Positions 6,996 to 51,748 of a stretch of DNA of 64,000 nt are shown here, piece by piece. The position numbers and the translations under genes are program-made. The stretch lies in the sequence record MT446386.1; one strand, written 5' to 3'. Below the pieces are notes generated by a model. That model did no database searches. It was not told the DNA's origin and saw nothing but the letters and a program-made list of their open reading frames with translations. Each line of letters opens with the position of its first letter. Position 1 is the stretch's first letter. This DNA comes from Escherichia virus TH06.

Positions 6996-8840
6996 GTGAG
7001 CAACCCGGACGCTCTTCCATTTTTGACAGAGATGACTGTCGCTGATATAATCTCTAAGCAAGCAAAGCACGGAGTGAGTTTCAACCGAAGAAATGCTCGG
7101 TGGTATGTTCACCTCCTTAAAGAGATTATTGTTAATATTGACAGAGAGCTGATTCCTCTCTTACCTAAGATGAGATTAGATGGCTCTACTTACATGAAGC
7201 CGTTTAAGAAGTCTGGAGCTTTACAGAAGTGGCCTCAAGCCTATTGTGATAGGGTTGGGCTGAAGAGAGAAGATATTGGTGGAGCTTTTACCTGTGTCGA
7301 ATACGTAGACTTTGACCCATCGAAAGATGCACGAGTTAAAGAAGCTCTTATGGATGAGGGCTTTCTTCCTCCAGAGTTTAACGTATCTAAGAAGCCTTGG
7401 AATACTTTCGAAATTAAGAAAGATATGAGAAAGTATGGAACATACCAAGCATGGTATACTGCTTGGATGCGAGGCAATGCTAAGCAGAAGCAGACAGCCG
7501 AGATGGTTGACGCTGATATTAAGAAGTTCTTAGAAAAGCATTTCAGGTTTAAGACTAAGAATTACATGAAGGCTTACGTATTTGGTTTGGGGTTGAACCC
7601 TAATCGCCGTAATCCTGTAACGTTTGATGAGATTAAGAAAGCACTAGCCACATCAAACAAGTGGCCTACAGCTCCTACAAACCTCGAGGAGACTCTTGAA
7701 GAAGGGTTAGGGGGTGAGCTAGGGAGTGTCGGAAGTTTGCTTAAGAGACGCGTTGTAGCGGCTCACAGGCTAGGTCTTATCAGTGGACTCATAGCAAAGG
7801 AACGCGAAGATGGTAAACTTTCGGCAGAAGCTAACAGCTGCGCTACGCCGACTTTTCGATTCAAACATCGTATCGTGGTTAATATTCCCTCCCGTGGTCT
7901 GTTTGGTCACGAGTGTCGCAGTTTGTTTGAGTCTGACTATAACTCAGACAGTGATCACTCTCGTCCTTTCGTTATTACTAACGTTGTTCCTGATGGTTGT
8001 TATATACGAAAAGGTACTAACGTAATTTACGAGAAAGGTAAGCCGGGGAAGAAAGACAAACCTGTAGGCGCTTACAAATATTATATACCCGCTGGTAAAG
8101 AAGTATTCTTAGGGTATGATGGTTCTGGACTTGAACTTCGTATGCTCGCTCACTACCTCATTAAAGAGTGTAGGGATATGCTTGCTGAGGCAATTGAAGA
8201 GAACAACCCAGCTAAGAAAGCTCTGGCAGAACGTGGTTTAGCTTCTGCTATTATATATCGTGATATTCTCCTTGAAGGTGATATCCACTCCCACAACCAG
8301 AAACTTGCTGGTCTTCCTACTCGTGACAACGCTAAAACGTTTATCTATGCATTCAACTACGGTGCTGGCGATGCTAAGCTTGGTTCAATTGTAGGTGGTG
8401 GGGCTGATGAAGGTTCAGTGATGCGAGCACGTTTCTTAGCAGAGAACCCATGTATTGCAATCCTCATTGATCGTATGACAGAGAAAGCTGCTCAAGGATA
8501 CTTGATTGGAGTTGATGGTCGTAAGATTACAATGAGACGGGATGCCACTGGTAAGGTTATGGTTCATAAAGCCCTTAACACACTCCTGCAATGTGCTGGT
8601 GCTGTTGTTATGAAATATGCTATGATGTTCCTTAACAAGTGGATTGAGAAAGATAAGGTTCGTTGTGCTAAGGTAATTGATATGCACGATGAAGGTCAAT
8701 TCTCAGTAAACCGTAATGATGTACAGAAACTCAAAGAACACACTGAGCTTTGTGTTAAGAAAGCTGGCGAGTATCTGAACATGGAATGTCCTCTGGCATC
8801 TGATTGTCAGATTGGACTTAACTGGATGCATACACACTAA
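6996..8840 (+). CDS. family A DNA polymerase (polymerase domain)
   Basis: Motif A YDGSGLELRMLAH, motif B RDNAKTFIYAFNYGAG, motif C VIDMHDEGQ; GTG start after AGGAG; no obvious 3'-5' exonuclease motifs. Confidence 0.85.
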   Translation: MSNPDALPFLTEMTVADIISKQAKHGVSFNRRNARWYVHLLKEIIVNIDRELIPLLPKMRLDGSTYMKPFKKSGALQKWPQAYCDRVGLKREDIGGAFTCVEYVDFDPSKDARVKEALMDEGFLPPEFNVSKKPWNTFEIKKDMRKYGTYQAWYTAWMRGNAKQKQTAEMVDADIKKFLEKHFRFKTKNYMKAYVFGLGLNPNRRNPVTFDEIKKALATSNKWPTAPTNLEETLEEGLGGELGSVGSLLKRRVVAAHRLGLISGLIAKEREDGKLSAEANSCATPTFRFKHRIVVNIPSRGLFGHECRSLFESDYNSDSDHSRPFVITNVVPDGCYIRKGTNVIYEKGKPGKKDKPVGAYKYYIPAGKEVFLGYDGSGLELRMLAHYLIKECRDMLAEAIEENNPAKKALAERGLASAIIYRDILLEGDIHSHNQKLAGLPTRDNAKTFIYAFNYGAGDAKLGSIVGGGADEGSVMRARFLAENPCIAILIDRMTEKAAQGYLIGVDGRKITMRRDATGKVMVHKALNTLLQCAGAVVMKYAMMFLNKWIEKDKVRCAKVIDMHDEGQFSVNRNDVQKLKEHTELCVKKAGEYLNMECPLASDCQIGLNWMHTH

Positions 8841-45193: not shown

Positions 45194-46735
45194 TTAGTAA
45201 CTCTGATTCCATCTGCTTACGTTTGCCTCATACAGAGAAGCACTTCCGTAGCTAACGTCATGCTTAGAGCGACCACGATGTGTAACAGAGCACGCTGAAT
45301 AGCGCATTGCATCCATTAAGTCATCATGTTCTTTAATAATCTTACCAACCTTACGGTGATATCTAGCTTTCTCTTCGAATAGCTTAGCATTAGCGGCTGT
45401 GTTAAAGATTTTAAAGCGTCCACTCATCATTCTTTCTCGGATATCTGTGATTCCCGGTTCTACAAAGAAGTTCTTTTTACCATCCATTCCAATTTTGTTG
45501 TAGAAGGTCTCACTCTGTACGTTAACTCCTGCATTCTTATAGAATTGAGCAACAGATGAGCCACTACCTTTCTCAATATTGTCCGCATCGTGCGGTAGGA
45601 TGACAGGAATCCACTGACCACGACCATTAATAGCTGGAGCATGATACACTGGAGTAAAGCCACCTTCTTTATATGAGTCGTAAACATAGATAGTATCCGT
45701 GTTTGCATCGTAAGCTGTCCAAACAGCAGCAGTTGGGTGATCAATACCAATATCAATTGCACAGACACGTTTCCACGTATCAGGAATTTCGAATGGTTCA
45801 CATTTAATTGTGTCATCCGATACATCATAAATCAAACCACTTCCTAACAATGGCATACCTTTCGAACGCATCTCTAACTGCCACGCTGGAATACCTTCAG
45901 TCATATCTTTTATATCTTGGTCAGTGATATGTCCACCTAGGTCTGCATGAGCATCCCACCAAGAAGCGTTCTGGAAATATAGAGAACCTGTGTTCTCATC
46001 CCCTTCACCTTTCATAAATTTATCTACCAGTTCAGTTAAACCGTTCTCTGGTGTAGCTGTAATTGTAACTAGACCTTTAGTTGTGAGTGTACGTGTGACG
46101 CACTGTGCGAATATAGCCATAGACTCGTATGGATCTTCTTCGTCTAACCAAATGTAGTCAACTGTTGCACCCATCAATGTGTGTTCACCCTGTTGGGTTG
46201 AACGGAATTCTAATGTACTTAAACCGTCAAACTCCCCTCTCTCATTTTGATGTTTGATTTGTACGATTTGAAGTTTGTTACCATCTCGTTCTATCGTGTC
46301 AATGACGATAGCATCACGAGGAATGACACCTGTCCCCAATAAGTTTGTATCCTTTCCGATAGGTGTACCAAACAATTCCTTTTGCAATACTTTCCTTGTG
46401 GAATCCCCTGTAATACCAACTGCCCATGCTAAGATAGGTCTTTTAAATTTATATCCTGTCCACCAAGTTGGGTAGCGACCTGTGACATGACAAGCAAACT
46501 CGTATGCCTCGCTATAAGATTTACCAACACGGTTCGCTGCACACAAGAATCTAAAGCGATGCTTCAATCCTGCTGCATAAAATTTCTTTTGGAAGTCATA
46601 CGCCTTGAAAGACAAAATCTTATTATACTTCCTCCATTGGTCACGCTCTTTCAACATATTCAATAGTGCTTTCTTTTCCTCTACACTAAGATTGTTACCA
46701 GTTAGAGCTTCATAAATTTGTTTATCTAATGACAT
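45194..46735 (-). CDS. terminase large subunit
   Basis: P-loop ANRVGKSYSEAYEF near N-terminus, 513 aa, position upstream of portal. Confidence 0.75.
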   Translation of the reverse strand: MSLDKQIYEALTGNNLSVEEKKALLNMLKERDQWRKYNKILSFKAYDFQKKFYAAGLKHRFRFLCAANRVGKSYSEAYEFACHVTGRYPTWWTGYKFKRPILAWAVGITGDSTRKVLQKELFGTPIGKDTNLLGTGVIPRDAIVIDTIERDGNKLQIVQIKHQNERGEFDGLSTLEFRSTQQGEHTLMGATVDYIWLDEEDPYESMAIFAQCVTRTLTTKGLVTITATPENGLTELVDKFMKGEGDENTGSLYFQNASWWDAHADLGGHITDQDIKDMTEGIPAWQLEMRSKGMPLLGSGLIYDVSDDTIKCEPFEIPDTWKRVCAIDIGIDHPTAAVWTAYDANTDTIYVYDSYKEGGFTPVYHAPAINGRGQWIPVILPHDADNIEKGSGSSVAQFYKNAGVNVQSETFYNKIGMDGKKNFFVEPGITDIRERMMSGRFKIFNTAANAKLFEEKARYHRKVGKIIKEHDDLMDAMRYSACSVTHRGRSKHDVSYGSASLYEANVSRWNQSY

Positions 46736-46804: not shown

Positions 46805-47278
46805 TTAACTCTCGTCCGCTTCCTCCCCCTTTTCAGCGTCCTCAGAGTTGTCTTCTTCTGGAGGCATAACGTCGATACCAAGTGCTCCAGTCAAGAAGTC
46901 CTTGATTTGTGCATTCAATGATTCTTCGTTGATTACATTCTCTTCCTCAATCTTAACTTCAACAGAGGCCGCCTTAGGATATACCAGATCTGCAACTTTT
47001 GATGCAGCCTTGAATCTAAGATCAGGTGGAATATTAGGATCTTCGTAAATTTGAATTAACACTTCATCAGGAGACAAATGACTTGCAGCAACACGGTCCA
47101 ACATTAATTGTGTCAGTTTACCTCTACTACCTCTGGGTCGTCCGAATTTATTTCCCTTTTGAAACTTCCCATTGCTTGGATTCATACCACGGCCTTCAAG
47201 TTCTTCCGTTACTCCGGGTAATCTTCCTGTAATCTCAGCTACCTGTGCAGGCGTGAGTTCTCCGTTTTCTCCAAACAT
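46805..47278 (-). CDS. terminase small subunit (putative)
   Basis: 157 aa, basic GNKFGRPRGSRG DNA-binding-like segment, strong RBS GAAGGAG, directly upstream of large terminase. Confidence 0.5.
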   Translation of the reverse strand: MFGENGELTPAQVAEITGRLPGVTEELEGRGMNPSNGKFQKGNKFGRPRGSRGKLTQLMLDRVAASHLSPDEVLIQIYEDPNIPPDLRFKAASKVADLVYPKAASVEVKIEEENVINEESLNAQIKDFLTGALGIDVMPPEEDNSEDAEKGEEADES

Positions 47279-47334: not shown

Positions 47335-47967
47335 TTACTTACAATCACCAACGGACAGGTTAAACATCTTACCTAGAGCAATCGTCTCACCTTCCCACGG
47401 AAGTTCTGCACCCTTCTCTTCCTCTAAAAGAATAGAGCCGTCGACCAAAAATTTTTCGTAGTCTCGCAGTGCGTCGTCTACTAGCTCACTCTTGTGAATC
47501 CATGTAATTGTTTCTGTACCATCCTCTTCGATTCTAACATCACGATGCCATTCATCTTTGGAGGTAATATAATCATGGAGCATTTCGTATTCAGCTTCTT
47601 CAATCATCTCAATCATTGCACGAGCATAGTCAGGGAGGTGATCATGTTTAGTAGATTCGTATTCAACTACTTCCAGAGTAGAAGGCTTAGCCCGTGCAAC
47701 TTCTTCAAGTACTTTTGAGCGATCTTTGTAGTAGTTCTCATATTTATCACCAATAGTACCGACTTGAAGTCCACGGTATTGTTCTACTAAACTCATCATA
47801 TCTTTCTTCTCCGTAATAGTTGGTTTAAGAATACTTCCACTATATAAATCTTGTACAGCCAATCCTGAAACATTTCCCATAGTTTCTAAATGCTGTAAGC
47901 TACAACCAGATCGACATAGCTGTGAATTGTAATCGTTAAGGTCCATCGCTTGGATTAAATTATTCAT
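47335..47967 (-). CDS. hypothetical protein (210 aa)
   Basis: Start moved to MNNLIQ after GGGAG. Confidence 0.45.
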   Translation of the reverse strand: MNNLIQAMDLNDYNSQLCRSGCSLQHLETMGNVSGLAVQDLYSGSILKPTITEKKDMMSLVEQYRGLQVGTIGDKYENYYKDRSKVLEEVARAKPSTLEVVEYESTKHDHLPDYARAMIEMIEEAEYEMLHDYITSKDEWHRDVRIEEDGTETITWIHKSELVDDALRDYEKFLVDGSILLEEEKGAELPWEGETIALGKMFNLSVGDCK

Positions 47968-48214
47968 TTGTATCTCCCTTGCTGTAATCTTTGTATGTTT
48001 CTTTTCTGTAAGTGCGGAATGCTCTGAAGAAGAGCCAACCAAAACTACTTACATCAATTGTAATATCGAAATCTGTTTCATCATCTAAATCAACAAGACG
48101 GCCTAAGCAAGTAGCTTCCATCCCTTCTTCAGAGTCACTGTTGACCACGAAAGCGTATGTCTCCGTTCTGAACCGAGGCACCATCTCTGATAAAAAGTCT
48201 AGTACTAAATTCAT
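47960..48214 (-). CDS. hypothetical acidic protein (84 aa), first gene of the minus-strand block
   Basis: Track ORF with RBS GGAGAAG. Confidence 0.4.
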   Translation of the reverse strand: MNLVLDFLSEMVPRFRTETYAFVVNSDSEEGMEATCLGRLVDLDDETDFDITIDVSSFGWLFFRAFRTYRKETYKDYSKGDTNE

Positions 48215-48237
48215 AATTCTTCTCCTCTGAATAAGAG

Positions 48238-48455
48238 TATAAAGGGCACATCATAAGACCTACCCGTAAAGGCCACCTCACATTAACACCCGTGAGAATA
48301 CCTGTATTCATTTTCGTAGTCTTCTTCAGAGAAGCTACCGTATTCATCTTCTGTCATACATCCCTCTGATAAAGTTAAGACATAAAGGGGACGTCATCTT
48401 TGATGACTACTTCACATTAAGGCACCCCCATAAAGGCCATGTCACGTTAAGGCCT
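48238..48455. repeat. iteron-like imperfect direct repeats (ATAAAGGsCAC...TCACrTTAA units, at least 4 copies)
   Basis: Read directly: copies near 48238-48285 and 48381-48452. Confidence 0.4.
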
Positions 48456-48535
48456 ATCCATCCATGTGCTGTGTTTAAGCTTACCACATTTACTACATCT
48501 CCAAGTGGACTTATAAAGGGTGTGAACTCTTTCAT

Positions 48536-49219
48536 CCCCGTAAGCTTTGCGTATCCGATAGTACTCATGATCACATTTGAATTGCTTAATGATTAACTTA
48601 ATTTTCCACATAAGTTCTCTTTCAACCTTATATATAAGAGTTTAAAATTCTGATTTGACTGAGTAGGGCTAGCCGCTTCCCGCGCGTTTCCTAAAAGGGG
48701 GGAGTCCTCATTTAAAAAAGGGTTATTGGCAATGCCTTTACCTTCCTTTTCAACGTTCCACTTTTCCCCGTGCCTACTCCCCGTTATTCTTTCCCCGTGT
48801 ATACCATCCTATTCATTAGCTACCCGTTTATTTAGTACCCCTTTAAAGAGTGAGAGAAAGGCTATACTCTGATAACGGTCTGTTAAGGCGTGATAATAAC
48901 AGGTCTAATAATACCCCTAGTTACTACCCCATTCCCCCATAGTTACGTTGATAATAGTTTCAATAGTAATGATTATGAGTGCAATAATGATATATGTATT
49001 AATTAAGTGGATGATTGTGTTTCTTTTATTCTTTTCTTTTTCAGCGTGCCTTTGTGAGCGTAGCGAACGTCTTTGATGTTTGAGTTATACAATTATTTAA
49101 GTGGTATATTATTACCGCACTATCTTGCTATGTTTCCCCGTGGTCTGTTCTGCGGTTGTGTGTTCCCCGTTTGCCCTGGTCTGTTGGTCTGCTACCCGTA
49201 GCACCAGCGTAACACCCGT
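48536..49219. repeat. region enriched for the pentamer CCCGT (about 11 copies in under 1 kb, mostly as TCCCCGT) plus GGTCTGTT direct repeats and an AT-rich tract
   Basis: Counted by eye; strongly over-represented. Confidence 0.4.
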
Positions 49220-49336
49220 AGGATTAGTGTTATAAAGTAACAATAGCTAGTAAGCTGATTCTCTGAGTATGGAAAGTTTAGTAAATTAAATTCCTTTAGT
49301 TTTCAGTGAGTTATAAGAAAGTTAGAAAATAAATGG

Positions 49337-49364
49337 TTGACAGGTTTTTCCTTTATTATATAGT
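49337..49364 (+). promoter_or_regulatory. sigma70-type promoter P0 (TTGACA, 16 nt spacer, TATAGT)
   Basis: Consensus -35 and near-consensus -10 about 45 nt upstream of gene 49409. Confidence 0.5.
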
Positions 49365-49408
49365 TGCGATTGTAATTTGTAGTTTTCATCAACCATAAGG
49401 AATATCAA

Positions 49409-50281
49409 ATGTCTAAAGTAGCAATTAACCACTTGAACAAAGCAAACGAAAGTCTTTCCTCTTTAGGCTTAACTGTTGGTAGTCCTGATGCGTGGATGGA
49501 AAACGAAAGCGCACGTAAAGGATTCAAAAACTCTGTAATGCTGGCTTGCTTGATCATTAATTCTACTGCGAACGCTTTACAGTGTGAAGATGAAAGCACG
49601 TTCAAAGAGAACGGTTTTACCGATATGCAGGACGCTATCAATTGTTACATTCAAGCGAATTTGGATAGCTGGAATCAGAAAGATTGGCCTGAGTCATGCC
49701 GTGATGTGAAAGCTGAATTATCCCGCTTGTCTGTCATGGTTGAAGCATGGAACAAGAAAAACAAGAAACAGCCAATCAAGCCTACTGTTGCAAGTAAGAT
49801 TATGAAGTCTGTTAATCTGGCAAGTTATGCACTGGTTGCAGCTATCGGTGTTAGTGCACTGGTCACATCTCTTTCTGATAAGGCTATCGCTAGTCCTGCT
49901 CCTGCAACTGATGCGGCTAGTGTCTTCTCTAGTTCCATCAATAAGGGTTGGATGATTTGCAACGGTGCGGATAGTGACAGCAATAATATCGTGCTAAAGA
50001 TGAAATTTAGCAACGTAACAAATGATGGCGTTCTCTTTCAATCTAAAACGTTAGATAATCAGCCTAACAGTGATCTAGTTCTCAAGCGTACTGATAACGA
50101 TGCGGATATGGTGACATTTGGCACTGTACAACGTTACGAAGACGTTAAAGCTGTAACCAACCTAGTGAGCTATGGCCCGATCAATGAGTCGATGATTGCT
50201 ACAACTGTTTACAATAACGCTGATAACGCTGTTTATACCGTTCACGTTAATTTAGCCAACTGTATTAAGGCTAGTAAGTAA
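49409..50281 (+). CDS. early protein (290 aa), internal hydrophobic segment
   Basis: Track ORF, first gene downstream of P0. Confidence 0.5.
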   Translation: MSKVAINHLNKANESLSSLGLTVGSPDAWMENESARKGFKNSVMLACLIINSTANALQCEDESTFKENGFTDMQDAINCYIQANLDSWNQKDWPESCRDVKAELSRLSVMVEAWNKKNKKQPIKPTVASKIMKSVNLASYALVAAIGVSALVTSLSDKAIASPAPATDAASVFSSSINKGWMICNGADSDSNNIVLKMKFSNVTNDGVLFQSKTLDNQPNSDLVLKRTDNDADMVTFGTVQRYEDVKAVTNLVSYGPINESMIATTVYNNADNAVYTVHVNLANCIKASK

Positions 50282-51388: not shown

Positions 51389-51591
51389 TTTCTAGGGTGA
51401 TTGTATGGCTTACTCCCTTTTAGCTCGCTACAGTGCGTTTCAGGCCGCTTATTATTGCTTTACAAGCCGTTTTCTATGATGTATCACGCGCCCCCGCTCT
51501 TTTACCTCCTGATTTCTTCCGGTGTCCTACCGACAATAAAATAAATTCCTTTATAAAACAGTGAGATGAAAAATAATTTGAAAAAAGGGTA

Positions 51592-51619
51592 TTGACATGA
51601 TTTTCCTTTATAGTAATAT
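51592..51619 (+). promoter_or_regulatory. sigma70-type promoter P1 (TTGACA, 16 nt, TAATAT)
   Basis: Consensus -35, A-rich upstream tract; homologous to P0 over about 60 bp. Confidence 0.5.
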
Positions 51620-51748
51620 GAATCCCGTAGTAAGCAGTAAGTAACAACAAGTAGTAAAAACTCCTCGATAGGTGATTAGCATCACGGTAAAAGGCTTCAA
51701 CGGGGAGCGGTAGGAATACCGACAGTAAGACGCACAATGAAGGTGCTA

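What the first reader, a model, noticed from the sequence alone, without database searches (positions are those of the whole stretch)
48238..49405. Repeat-rich divergent region between the late block and early promoter P0: iteron-like repeats, CCCGT clustering, AT-rich tract
About 1.2 kb with no convincing ORF lies where the minus-strand and plus-strand blocks diverge. It holds at least four imperfect copies of an ATAAAGGsCAC...TCACrTTAA unit (48238-48455), about 11 copies of CCCGT (mostly TCCCCGT) between 48263 and 49219 against roughly one expected by chance, GGTCTGTT direct repeats and an AT-rich stretch near 48950-49050. This looks like an origin, a packaging (pac/cos) site, or the genome terminus/terminal repeat.
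Basis: seen in the sequence. Interest (0 to 1): 0.6.

Follow-up and report, generated by a model that had tools for sequence, protein, structure and literature searches.

The report
Phage genome-end (terminal repeat) junction
This stretch is where the two ends of a phiEco32-like E. coli phage genome meet in the assembly: it holds the 193-bp terminal repeat already known for this phage group, the early promoters beside it, and arrays of short one-strand repeats that have not been described in the papers I could read.

Summary
CCCGT occurs 11 times in 48263-49219, all on the + strand, against about 0.4 expected. It is the most enriched 5-mer of the region.

The window is a circularly permuted Kuravirus (phiEco32-like) genome. 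The experimentally defined 193-bp direct terminal repeat (DTR) of phiEco32 aligns to window 48671-48863. Records of SU10, YF01, 4E8 and NC-B also end at the equivalent of 48671, and KM01 starts at 48863.

So the region is the concatemer junction, in this order:
- small minus-strand genes of the left genome end;
- a weak leftward promoter;
- the DTR;
- 545 bp of non-coding right end;
- the strong early promoter (TTGACA-16-TATAGT, 49337-49364).

"Origin" is untested.

"No ORF" is wrong for the left third, where 48447..48611 encodes a 54-aa protein of a known phage family.

The "iterons" are six 14-16-bp units, TWAAGGS-N4-YCAY. They lie between small genes that are present in some relatives and absent in others. 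They resemble in architecture the CCTAAAG arrays at the ends of T7.

[CA]CCC[GA]T sites sit 42 and 71 bp from the left genome end in all 16 phages compared. That fits a role in terminase recognition, which is inferred and not shown.

The core finding is ordinary and already known. The repeat arrays are a modest new detail.

The parts
47960..48214 (-). 84-aa gene, homologue of phiEco32 gene 4. It marks the inner limit of the small-gene region at the left genome end.
   Evidence: ORF list. Matches phrog_12698 at E=2.5e-50. Annotated as phi32_4-like in SGF2.
48240..48461 (+). Six copies of a 14-16-bp unit, TWAAGGS-N4-YCAY, at 48240, 48267, 48383, 48417, 48431 and 48447, all on the + strand. They lie in the gaps between small minus-strand genes. 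The last copy overlaps the stop codon of the 54-aa gene.
   Evidence: Other relatives carry 4-7 copies, all on the same strand. Copy number varies, and SGF2, DE5 and Bas94 have three tandem copies with a 14-bp period. Insertion and deletion breakpoints in the alignment fall at the units.
48283..48357 (-). Candidate 24-aa acidic ORF (MTEDEYGSFSEEDYENEYRYSHGC) preceded by a GAGGGA ribosome-binding site. It sits on a cassette that only some relatives carry.
   Evidence: Translation and sequence. The cassette is present in phiEc_1, 1-6bf and phiEco32 and replaced or absent in TH38, SGF2, NJ01 and others. Whether it is a real gene is not established.
48447..48611 (-). 54-aa gene, homologue of SU10 CDS1 and phiEc1_0110, with a CxH...CxxC pattern.
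   Evidence: Matches phrog_7696 at E=6e-17. Translation. Annotated as a CDS in relatives.
48626..48665 (-). Candidate weak sigma-70 promoter for the 54-aa gene (GTCAAA-17-TATATA). It abuts the left edge of the terminal repeat.
   Evidence: The sequence matches the 'potential sigma-70 promoter upstream of CDS1' in the SU10 S2 table. The block 48631-48660 is 0.87-0.98 conserved in Kuravirus and 0.8-1.0 in the distant lineage. It falls below the threshold of the promoter scan.
48671..48863 (.). Single collapsed copy of the 193-bp direct terminal repeat. 48671 corresponds to the phiEco32 right genome end and 48863 to the phiEco32 left genome end.
   Evidence: phiEco32 positions 1-193 and 77362-77554 are identical to each other, and both ends align to the window up to these coordinates. 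Records of phiEco32, SU10, YF01, 4E8 and NC-B end at the 48671 equivalent, and KM01 starts at the 48863 equivalent. The repeat was determined by experiment in phiEco32, by whole-genome nanopore reads in YF01 and by PhageTerm in Paul. The window holds only one copy.
48692..48722 (+). Internal direct repeat TAAAAGGGGGG-N10-TAAAAAAGGG, inside the most conserved block of the terminal repeat. GGAGTCCTCA within it is invariant.
   Evidence: It is the reverse complement of the CCCTTTTTTA-N10-CCCTTTTTTA repeat described in SU10, 21 nt from the repeat end. Conservation is 0.9-1.0 in all lineages. It corresponds to the 'highly conserved region ~130-170' of the YF01 paper.
48765..48827 (+). Four oriented YMCCCGT sites inside the terminal repeat (CCCGT at 48767, 48780, 48794, 48823). 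The six-base [CA]CCC[GA]T matches start 98, 85, 71 and 42 bp before the left genome end.
   Evidence: The -42 and -71 sites are present in all 16 phages compared. The core columns are 0.97 conserved against 0.85 for the rest of the repeat in Kuravirus. In Suseptimavirus-type relatives the flanking sequence has diverged but four ACCC(A/G)T sites remain.
48933..49046 (+). Conserved AT-rich block (48933-49012) followed by a T-rich tract ending in CAGCGT (49018-49046). Function unknown.
   Evidence: 75% A+T. Conserved in every lineage while its flanks vary. Insertions and deletions not divisible by three rule out coding. No Rfam match.
49101..49119 (+). Conserved imperfect palindrome TGGTATATTATTACCGCA, which reads GGTAAT-TT-ATTACC in the distant lineage.
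   Evidence: Conservation is 0.97-0.98 in Kuravirus, and ATTACCGCA is 0.97 conserved in the distant lineage.
49135..49219 (+). Second cluster of four oriented YMCCCGT sites (49137, 49166, 49195, 49215; spacing 29, 29, 20), interleaved with GGTCTG(T/C)T at 49142, 49178 and 49186.
   Evidence: Every relative has 3-5 sites with 28-30-bp spacing. The last site lies 114-126 bp upstream of the early promoter marker in all phages where the promoter is found, while its distance to the terminal repeat varies from 248 to 344 bp.
49275..49364 (+). Early sigma-70 promoter module: conserved upstream element AGTTTAGTAAATTAAATTCCTTT...CAGTGAG, -35 TTGACA at 49337-49342, 16-bp spacer, -10 TATAGT at 49359-49364.
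   Evidence: The promoter scan scores it 11 of 12. It matches the SU10 early promoter upstream of CDS125. It is conserved in all lineages. A 74%-similar copy of the module lies at 51537-51611.
49409..50281 (+). First early gene, 290 aa, homologue of phiEco32 gene 128.
   Evidence: Matches phrog_36409 at E=7e-203.

Best explanation
The region is the concatemer junction of a phiEco32-like (Kuravirus) podophage whose assembly is circularly permuted, so that its two physical ends are joined through a single copy of the terminal repeat.

By homology, virion DNA begins at 48671 and ends at 48863, and the 193 bp in between is present at both ends.

Left of the repeat lie small left-end genes read leftward from a weak host-type promoter. 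Right of it lie 545 bp of non-coding leading end and the strong early host-type promoter at 49337-49364.

**Shown here:** homology, shared boundaries, synteny, motif enrichment, and motif conservation in position and strand.

**Inferred:**
- Terminase cuts the concatemer at the two repeat edges, which share a G-S-C-Y|A-G (CTAG-core) sequence in most relatives. The repeat is then duplicated as in T7.
- The oriented YMCCCGT sites, fixed at 42 and 71 bp from the left end and repeating every 29-30 bp, are docking sites for the multimeric small terminase. The candidate is the 157-aa product of 46805..47278.
- The second YMCCCGT cluster, which would reach the motor about 470-550 bp before the final cut if packaging runs from the left end, helps termination.
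- The TWAAGGS-N4-YCAY units correspond to the CCTAAAG arrays that flank the T7 terminal repeat.

My confidence is about 0.9 that this is the terminal-repeat junction, and about 0.35 that the CCCGT sites are terminase recognition sites.
For: **Identity**
- The query (window 48100-49500, the region plus flanks) is 83-98% identical to Kuravirus genomes.
- The two ends of phiEco32 carry an identical 193-bp repeat, which aligns to 48671-48863.
- Records with annotated or experimentally determined repeats end at the same base: YF01 193 bp, 4E8 206 bp, NC-B, SU10 and phiEco32.
- KM01, whose ends were set with PhageTerm, starts at the 48863 equivalent.

**Literature**
- The phiEco32 repeat was determined by restriction mapping and primer walking, YF01's by whole-genome nanopore reads, and Paul's by PhageTerm. 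The same repeat was found in 30 phages.
- SU10 reads drop sharply at both repeat edges, which indicates blunt ends.

**Synteny and promoters**
- The flanking genes and both promoters match SU10 and phiEco32. The large terminase lies 2 kb away.

**Motifs**
- CCCGT occurs 11 times against 0.4 expected, on one strand only.
- Sites at -42 and -71 are present in 16 of 16 phages, including lineages where the surrounding repeat sequence is only about 50-70% identical.
- Both repeat edges share GSCY|AG.

**Analogy with T7**
- T7 has 14 one-strand C[CA]TAAAG copies with a 13-bp period in and beside its repeat.
- The YF01 authors assign the equivalent 157-aa protein as a PaP3-like small terminase. PaP3 small terminase is a nonamer of helix-turn-helix domains that binds DNA sequence-specifically.
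Against: - No reads or virion DNA of this particular phage were available, so its ends are inferred by homology only. The window holds one repeat copy.
- The right repeat edge in the window is GGCT|ATAC, not GGCT|AGC. The shared cut-site motif therefore rests on 4-6 bases.
- The second CCCGT cluster keeps a constant distance to the early promoter, not to the repeat. That fits transcription control as well as packaging.
- The 29-30-bp spacing is not a whole number of helical turns.
- The 157-aa protein has no Pfam match, no PHROG function and no PDB sequence match here. Its assignment as small terminase rests on a published HHpred result.
- No binding data exist for any of the motifs.
- Single-stranded DNA of the repeat folds no better than shuffled sequence (z = +1.44), so a hairpin-primed duplication step finds no support.
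Confidence: 0.85

Rival explanations
1. The non-coding part is, or also is, the origin of replication. The oriented CCCGT/GGTCTG repeats would bind an initiator like iterons, and the conserved AT-rich block 48933-49046 would be the unwinding element, possibly primed by transcription from the nearby early promoter as at T7 origins.
For: - An AT-rich block that is 75% A+T and conserved in all lineages.
- Direct repeats on both sides of it.
- The minimum of cumulative GC skew falls at about 49000.
- Three TGGTC pentamers lie in 49140-49190. From my own knowledge, TGGTC is a T7-type primase recognition sequence.
- From my own knowledge, T7 has secondary origins near its ends.
Against: - The skew minimum coincides exactly with the switch from minus-strand to plus-strand genes, which gives the same signal.
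- The repeat cores are 5-8 bp, far shorter than the 17-22 bp typical of iterons, and half of them lie inside the terminal repeat at fixed distances from the genome end.
- No initiator-like gene flanks the region.
- A search of the literature I could reach found no mapped origin for this phage group.
Confidence: 0.15
2. The right-hand CCCGT/GGTCTG cluster is an upstream regulatory array for the early promoter. A host or phage DNA-binding protein would bind it to activate or shut off early transcription. It would have nothing to do with packaging.
For: - The last site lies 114-126 bp upstream of the promoter in all phages where the promoter is found, while its distance to the terminal repeat varies by about 100 bp.
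- A CCCGT also lies just downstream of the second, similar early promoter module at 51590-51628.
Against: - The same motif, on the same strand and with the same 29-bp spacing, lies inside the terminal repeat at fixed distances from the genome end, about 500 bp from that promoter.
- I found no convincing match to any E. coli regulator motif I know. NarL TACYYMT fits only the ACCCAT variants (my own knowledge).
- The constant distance may simply reflect the conserved sequence between the cluster and the promoter.
Confidence: 0.2
3. The left-hand TWAAGGS-N4-YCAY units are not packaging or replication elements. They would be signals attached to each small gene (RNA processing, pausing or translation), or simply the repeated joints at which small gene cassettes are exchanged by recombination.
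For: - Each unit or pair of units sits between a stop codon and the next ribosome-binding site on the minus strand.
- Copy number varies between relatives, and breakpoints of cassette gain and loss fall at the units.
Against: - There is no conserved RNA structure. The alignment fold energy is 0 for 48215-48460 on both strands.
- The units match neither the sigma-70 consensus nor the phiEco32 sigma consensus tAATGTAtA.
- They occur nowhere else in 64 kb, although the genome has many other small genes.
- They are strictly on one strand, and T7 has a similar TAAAG array beside its terminal repeat.
Confidence: 0.3
4. The region is a lambda-type cos site or a headful pac site.
For: It lies about 2 kb upstream of the terminase genes, the usual place for such sites.
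Against: Relatives have defined, blunt ends with a 193-bp direct repeat. They have neither cohesive ends nor permuted ends.
Confidence: 0.03

Closest known systems
The 193-bp direct terminal repeat of phiEco32-like phages (Kuravirus: phiEco32, SU10, YF01, Paul)
   Same: The sequence is homologous over the whole repeat (the two phiEco32 ends align at about 90% identity across the junction). It has the same two boundaries, the same flanking genes and promoters, and the same internal TAAAAAAGGG repeat.
   Different: Nothing essential differs. The window carries one collapsed copy because the assembly is permuted. Its right edge reads GGCT|ATAC, as in TH38 and YF01, rather than GGCT|AGC. The oriented CCCGT arrays and the 14-16-bp units are not mentioned in the papers I could read. 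I could not obtain the original phiEco32 paper.
The T7 concatemer junction: 160-bp terminal repeat with arrays of short repeats inside and beside it, called SRL and SRR from my memory of Dunn and Studier 1983
   Same: - A short direct terminal repeat.
- Strictly one-strand short repeats both inside and beside the repeat. In T7 the period is 13 bp and the core is C[CA]TAAAG, with 14 copies in the first 361 bp. Here the period is 14-16 bp and the core is C(A/G)TAAAGG.
- Several hundred bp of non-coding leading end followed by strong host-type early promoters, plus a leftward host promoter.
   Different: - These phages have no phage RNA polymerase. They use host polymerase with a phage sigma factor, so the T7 polymerase pause at the junction and the phiOL/phiOR promoters have no counterpart.
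- A second motif (YMCCCGT) is dominant here.
- Here the TAAAG-type units are interleaved with small genes.
- No sequence homology to T7 was tested or is claimed. The shared TAAAG core may be a coincidence.
Lambda cosB: several small-terminase binding sites just inside the end that is packaged first (from my own knowledge)
   Same: There are several short oriented sites within about 100 bp of the cut, on the side that leads toward the terminase genes.
   Different: The ends here are blunt with a 193-bp redundancy rather than 12-nt cohesive ends. The sites are 6-8 bp rather than 16 bp. No binding has been shown.
Iteron-type replication origins of plasmids and phages
   Same: Direct repeats lie next to an AT-rich tract.
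   Different: The repeat cores are much shorter. They are split between the terminal repeat and a cluster that keeps a constant distance to a promoter. No initiator gene is adjacent.

Membership tests
Kuravirus (phiEco32-type) direct terminal repeat / concatemer junction | Full-length sequence homology to the experimentally defined 193-bp repeat, with the same two boundaries | tested here: met
   Both phiEco32 ends align up to 48671 and 48863. Five further records end or start at the same bases. The alignment of 18 phages is.
Kuravirus (phiEco32-type) direct terminal repeat / concatemer junction | Position between the small left-end genes (next to the terminase module) and the first early gene with its host-type promoter | tested here: met
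   Gene 4, CDS1 and gene 128 homologues and the large terminase are all present. Both promoters match the SU10 table.
Kuravirus (phiEco32-type) direct terminal repeat / concatemer junction | The repeat is physically present at both ends of virion DNA, with defined blunt ends | not testable with these tools
   No reads or virion DNA are available, and the window holds a single copy. This feature is shown for the relatives phiEco32, YF01, Paul and SU10 in the literature.
T7-type concatemer junction with short-repeat arrays | Short direct terminal repeat with one-strand arrays of short repeats inside and beside it | tested here: met
   Window. T7.
T7-type concatemer junction with short-repeat arrays | Phage RNA polymerase promoters and a polymerase pause site at the junction that take part in processing | tested here: not met
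   This phage group has no phage RNA polymerase. Transcription uses host polymerase with sigma-70 or the phage sigma. Only host-type promoters were found. GGTCTGTT resembles the T7 pause core ATCTGTT (my own knowledge), but the copy next to the repeat (48877) is not conserved.
T7-type concatemer junction with short-repeat arrays | Duplication of the repeat during concatemer processing (nicks at both edges plus strand-displacement synthesis) | not testable with these tools
   This is inference only. Single-stranded DNA of the repeat shows no special hairpin (z = +1.44).
Iteron-type replication origin | Three or more direct repeats of about 17-22 bp, an adjacent AT-rich unwinding element, and a matching initiator gene | tested here: inconclusive
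   An AT-rich block is present. The repeats are present but their cores are 5-8 bp, and half of them lie in the terminal repeat. No initiator-like neighbour was found. No replication data exist.
Lambda-type cos or headful pac site | Cohesive single-stranded ends (cos), or circularly permuted, terminally redundant ends (pac) | not testable with these tools
   This cannot be measured here. Published data on relatives show defined blunt ends with a 193-bp repeat, which contradicts both.

The most novel reading that the evidence does not exclude
The two families of strictly one-strand short repeats form a previously undescribed recognition code for concatemer processing in this phage group. One family is YMCCCGT, at fixed distances from the genome end with a 29-30-bp period. 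The other is the 14-16-bp TAAAGG units. In this reading, the shared TAAAG core and 13-16-bp period of the T7 arrays, which to my knowledge have no established role, reflect a common mechanism in podophages with short terminal repeats. That mechanism could be inherited or could depend on a host factor.
Probability: 0.15. Interest if true: 0.5.

Novelty: already known. Interest (0 to 1): 0.22.

Why it matters
Knowing that 48671 and 48863 are the likely physical ends lets this genome be re-opened and annotated correctly, with the 193 bp added at the second end. It also explains the gene-poor, repeat-rich look of the region without invoking anything new.

The only part that could interest a specialist is the position-invariant, one-strand motif arrays around the repeat and their architectural likeness to the T7 end arrays. 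They offer concrete, mutable candidate sites for studying how terminal-repeat podophages recognise and duplicate their ends. That step is still poorly understood, even in T7.

Tried and rejected
- **Non-coding RNA.** An Rfam scan of 47500-50000 at E<=1 found nothing. The consensus fold of 12 relatives gives only -3 to -5 kcal/mol for the right part and 0 for the left units. My column-shuffle z-scores from that call are not meaningful and I do not use them.
- **Hairpin in the terminal repeat.** The single-stranded DNA fold has z = +1.44, so there is none.
- **Hidden genes in 48864-49336.** The 42-44-aa ORFs there are broken by insertions and deletions not divisible by three in relatives.
- **Left units as promoters.** They match neither sigma-70 nor the phiEco32 sigma consensus tAATGTAtA. 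The TAATGTGA strings in the window are not conserved in relatives.
- **Terminal redundancy inside the window.** There is no second copy of the repeat.
- **The 13-mer CCCGTGGTCTGTT at 7891, inside the DNA polymerase gene.** About two exact 13-mer matches are expected by chance for a region of this size, so I dropped it.
- **A more distant relative, phage 7-11.** It has no comparable arrays, and its record ends are not known to be physical ends.
- **EK010.** It proved to belong to the lineage already sampled, so it adds no independent test.
- **The 157-aa protein against PDB sequences.** Nothing significant.
- **Literature.** The phiEco32 genome and transcription papers are not held. Searches found nothing on a phiEco32 origin or on a function for the T7 short repeats.
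- **Host regulator sites (DnaA, IHF, CRP, PhoB, CpxR, NarL).** I compared these by eye against consensus sequences from my own knowledge and found no convincing match. No tool was used.
Full report
**What the window is.** The query (window 48100-49500, the region plus flanks) matches 93 phage records, almost all Escherichia or Shigella phages of the genus Kuravirus (phiEco32-like, subfamily Gordonclarkvirinae), at 83-98% identity. The window is the reverse complement of the phiEco32 record. The late genes, including the large terminase at 45194..46735 with Pfam Terminase_6N/6C, are on the minus strand up to 48611. The early genes start on the plus strand at 49409.

**Checking the observation.**
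- CCCGT occurs exactly 11 times between 48263 and 49219, all on the + strand. About 0.4 are expected per strand from the rest of the window, and 0.64 from base composition. Poisson P is about 4e-13.
- An unbiased k-mer scan makes CCCGT the most enriched 5-mer of the region. TCCCCGT occurs 6 times against 0.02 expected. ATAAAGG is the most enriched k-mer in the left part and GGTCTG in the right part.
- GGTCTGTT is at 48877, 49142 and 49178. The AT-rich tract (48940-49045) is 75% A+T.
- The left-hand repeat is real, but it is a 14-16-bp unit, TWAAGGS-N4-YCAY. It has six copies at 48240-48447, all on the + strand. The pattern TAAAG G[CG]....TCA (written without the space: TAAAGG[CG]....TCA) occurs nowhere else in 64 kb.
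- The statement that there is no convincing ORF is wrong for the left third. 48447..48611 (-) encodes a 54-aa protein of phrog_7696 (E = 6e-17) that relatives annotate as CDS1. A 24-aa acidic ORF lies at 48283..48357.
- The non-coding stretch is 48612-49408.

**What it is.**
- The two ends of the phiEco32 record carry an identical 193-bp repeat. The left end aligns to the window up to 48863 and the right end from 48671, so the repeat corresponds to 48671-48863.
- Records of phiEco32, SU10, YF01 (annotated 193-bp direct terminal repeat), 4E8 (206 bp) and NC-B end exactly at the 48671 equivalent. KM01, whose ends were set with PhageTerm, starts at the 48863 equivalent.
[quoted passage not shown] YF01's was determined from whole-genome nanopore reads and Paul's by PhageTerm. 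The same 192-193-bp repeat was found in 30 phages.
- In SU10, reads drop sharply at both edges, which indicates blunt ends. An internal repeat CCCTTTTTTA-N10-CCCTTTTTTA was also noted there. Its reverse complement is window 48692-48722.
- The window contains only one copy of the repeat, as expected for a permuted assembly with the repeat collapsed.
- The region is therefore the concatemer junction: left genome end, terminal repeat, right genome end.

**Anatomy, left to right in the window.**
1. 47960..48214 (-): gene 4 homologue.
2. 48215-48446: a mosaic segment. Small gene cassettes are present, absent or swapped between relatives. The segment is punctuated by the 14-16-bp units, whose number varies from 4 to 7 per phage, with three tandem copies at a 14-bp period in SGF2, DE5 and Bas94.
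3. 48447..48611 (-): the 54-aa gene.
4. 48626-48665 (-): the 'potential sigma-70 promoter upstream of CDS1' of SU10. It is very conserved but below the threshold of the promoter scan.
5. 48671-48863: the terminal repeat. Its most conserved block is 48685-48735, followed by four YMCCCGT sites.
6. 48864-48930: the most variable stretch.
7. 48933-49046: a conserved AT-rich block and a T-rich tract.
8. 49101-49119: a conserved imperfect palindrome.
9. 49135-49219: four more YMCCCGT sites, interleaved with GGTCTG.
10. 49275-49364: the early promoter module, TTGACA-16-TATAGT, scoring 11 of 12. It matches the SU10 promoter upstream of CDS125.
11. 49409: start of the gene 128 homologue.

**Comparative evidence on the motifs.** I aligned 18 junctions.
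- Both repeat edges share G-S-C-Y|A-G. The left edge reads GGGGCT|AGCC or AGGC. The right edge reads GAAAGGCT|AGC in most phages and GGCT|ATAC in the window, TH38 and YF01.
- Relative to the right edge, which is the phiEco32 left genome end, [CA]CCC[GA]T sites lie at -42 and -71 in all 16 phages examined. That includes the Suseptimavirus-type lineage (NC-B, Bas86, Bas87, SU7) and 4E8. Two more sites lie at -85/-98 in Kuravirus, or at -99/-114 in the divergent lineage.
- In the divergent lineage the surrounding repeat sequence is only about 50-70% identical to the window, yet four ACCC(A/G)T sites persist.
- Within Kuravirus the core columns are 0.97 conserved against 0.85 for the rest of the repeat.
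- The right-hand cluster has 3-5 sites with 28-30-bp spacing in every phage. Its last site is 114-126 bp upstream of the early promoter in all phages where the promoter is found, whereas its distance to the repeat varies from 248 to 344 bp.
- Only three minus-strand copies occur anywhere in these spans, one each in TH38, Bas90 and Bas94.

**Comparison with T7.** I fetched the T7 ends to test a resemblance I had recalled. T7 has 14 copies of C[CA]TAAAG in its first 361 bp, all on one strand: three inside the 160-bp repeat and eleven just beside it with a 13-bp period. Three more lie beside the right-hand repeat. About 900 bp of non-coding leading end follows, with host-type promoters that include a leftward one.

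The Kuravirus junction has the same architecture. Its left units share the TAAAG core and a similar period. From my own knowledge, the names SRL and SRR and the lack of an established role for these arrays come from Dunn and Studier 1983. I found no paper in the library that addresses their function.

**How it most likely works.** The following is inference.
- In the concatemer, one repeat copy separates neighbouring genomes. Terminase cuts at the two CTAG-core edges, and the repeat is duplicated as proposed for T7 (the models are summarised).
- The early genes and their strong host-type promoter lie at the 48671 end. That end should therefore enter the cell first and be packaged last, and packaging should start at the 48863 end, the one that leads toward the terminase genes.
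- The four oriented sites at 42-98 bp inside that end are then placed like lambda cosB sites (my own knowledge). I propose that they dock the multimeric small terminase.
- The candidate is the 157-aa product of 46805..47278. The YF01 authors assign its equivalent as a PaP3-like small terminase. PaP3 small terminase is a nonamer of helix-turn-helix domains with sequence-specific binding.
- The second cluster would be met about 470-550 bp before the final cut.
- I put about 0.9 on the junction identity and about 0.35 on the terminase-site role.

**Rivals.**
- *An origin* cannot be excluded. There is a conserved AT-rich block flanked by repeats, and the skew minimum is near 49000. However, the skew follows gene orientation, the repeats are short, half of them lie in the terminal repeat, and no initiator gene is nearby.
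- *The right cluster may regulate the early promoter.* Its distance to the promoter is constant.
- *The left units may be signals attached to each small gene, or recombination joints.* They sit between a stop codon and the next ribosome-binding site, and cassette breakpoints fall at them. Against this, they have no conserved RNA fold, no promoter consensus, and occur nowhere else in the genome.
- *Cos or headful pac sites* are contradicted by published end structures of relatives.

**Verdict.** This feature is already well documented for phiEco32-like phages, and the window's sequence is 90-98% identical to deposited genomes. The only new detail is the description of the one-strand motif arrays, their fixed positions relative to the genome end, and their likeness to the T7 arrays. 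Interest is low to modest.

Noticed in passing
window 49282-49356 and 51537-51611: The early promoter module is repeated at 74% identity about 2.2 kb downstream. The second copy reads TTGACA-17-TAATAT at about 51593-51621. The module consists of an upstream AAATTCCTTT...CAGTGAG element, TTGACA, and a TTTTCCTTTA spacer. This suggests an extended shared promoter architecture, and it corresponds to the promoters SU10 lists between CDS120 and CDS121.
   Followed up: partly
window 48215-48446 (with L009-L020): This segment is hypervariable between close relatives. Small ORF cassettes, including a 24-aa acidic peptide at 48283..48357, are present, absent or swapped. The breakpoints fall at the 14-16-bp TAAAGG units.
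   Followed up: partly
L007 (NC-B) 1-250, L008 (SU7) 1-53, L019/L020 (Bas87/Bas86): By the conserved edge sequences, the terminal repeat of the Suseptimavirus-type lineage should be about 250 bp. NC-B is annotated with 194 bp. SU7 is published with 53 bp, which equals only the last 53 bp of that 250-bp stretch. The SU7 authors themselves cautioned about their value.
   Followed up: partly
window 7891-7903: The 13-mer CCCGTGGTCTGTT at 49137 recurs exactly inside the DNA polymerase gene (6996..8840), followed by a second TGGTC. About two exact 13-mer matches are expected by chance for a 1.2-kb region searched against 64 kb, so this is probably coincidence.
   Followed up: yes
window 47335-48042 (-): The longest ORF for the gene 5 homologue, labelled 'ABC transporter' in records and PHROGs, starts at a TTG that overlaps the preceding gene by 83 nt. 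The family profile aligns only from residue 26, and relatives annotate a shorter gene, so the real start is probably near 47967.
   Followed up: no
window 48447-48611 (-): The 54-aa product has a C-x-H ... C-x-x-C pattern, which may be a small zinc-binding fold. Its function is unknown (phrog_7696).
   Followed up: no
L025/L026 (EK010, NC_070981) record ends: Both ends of the EK010 record carry about 100 bp of the same repeat-internal sequence, and the right end has unrelated bases after the repeat edge. This looks like an assembly artefact rather than true termini.
   Followed up: no
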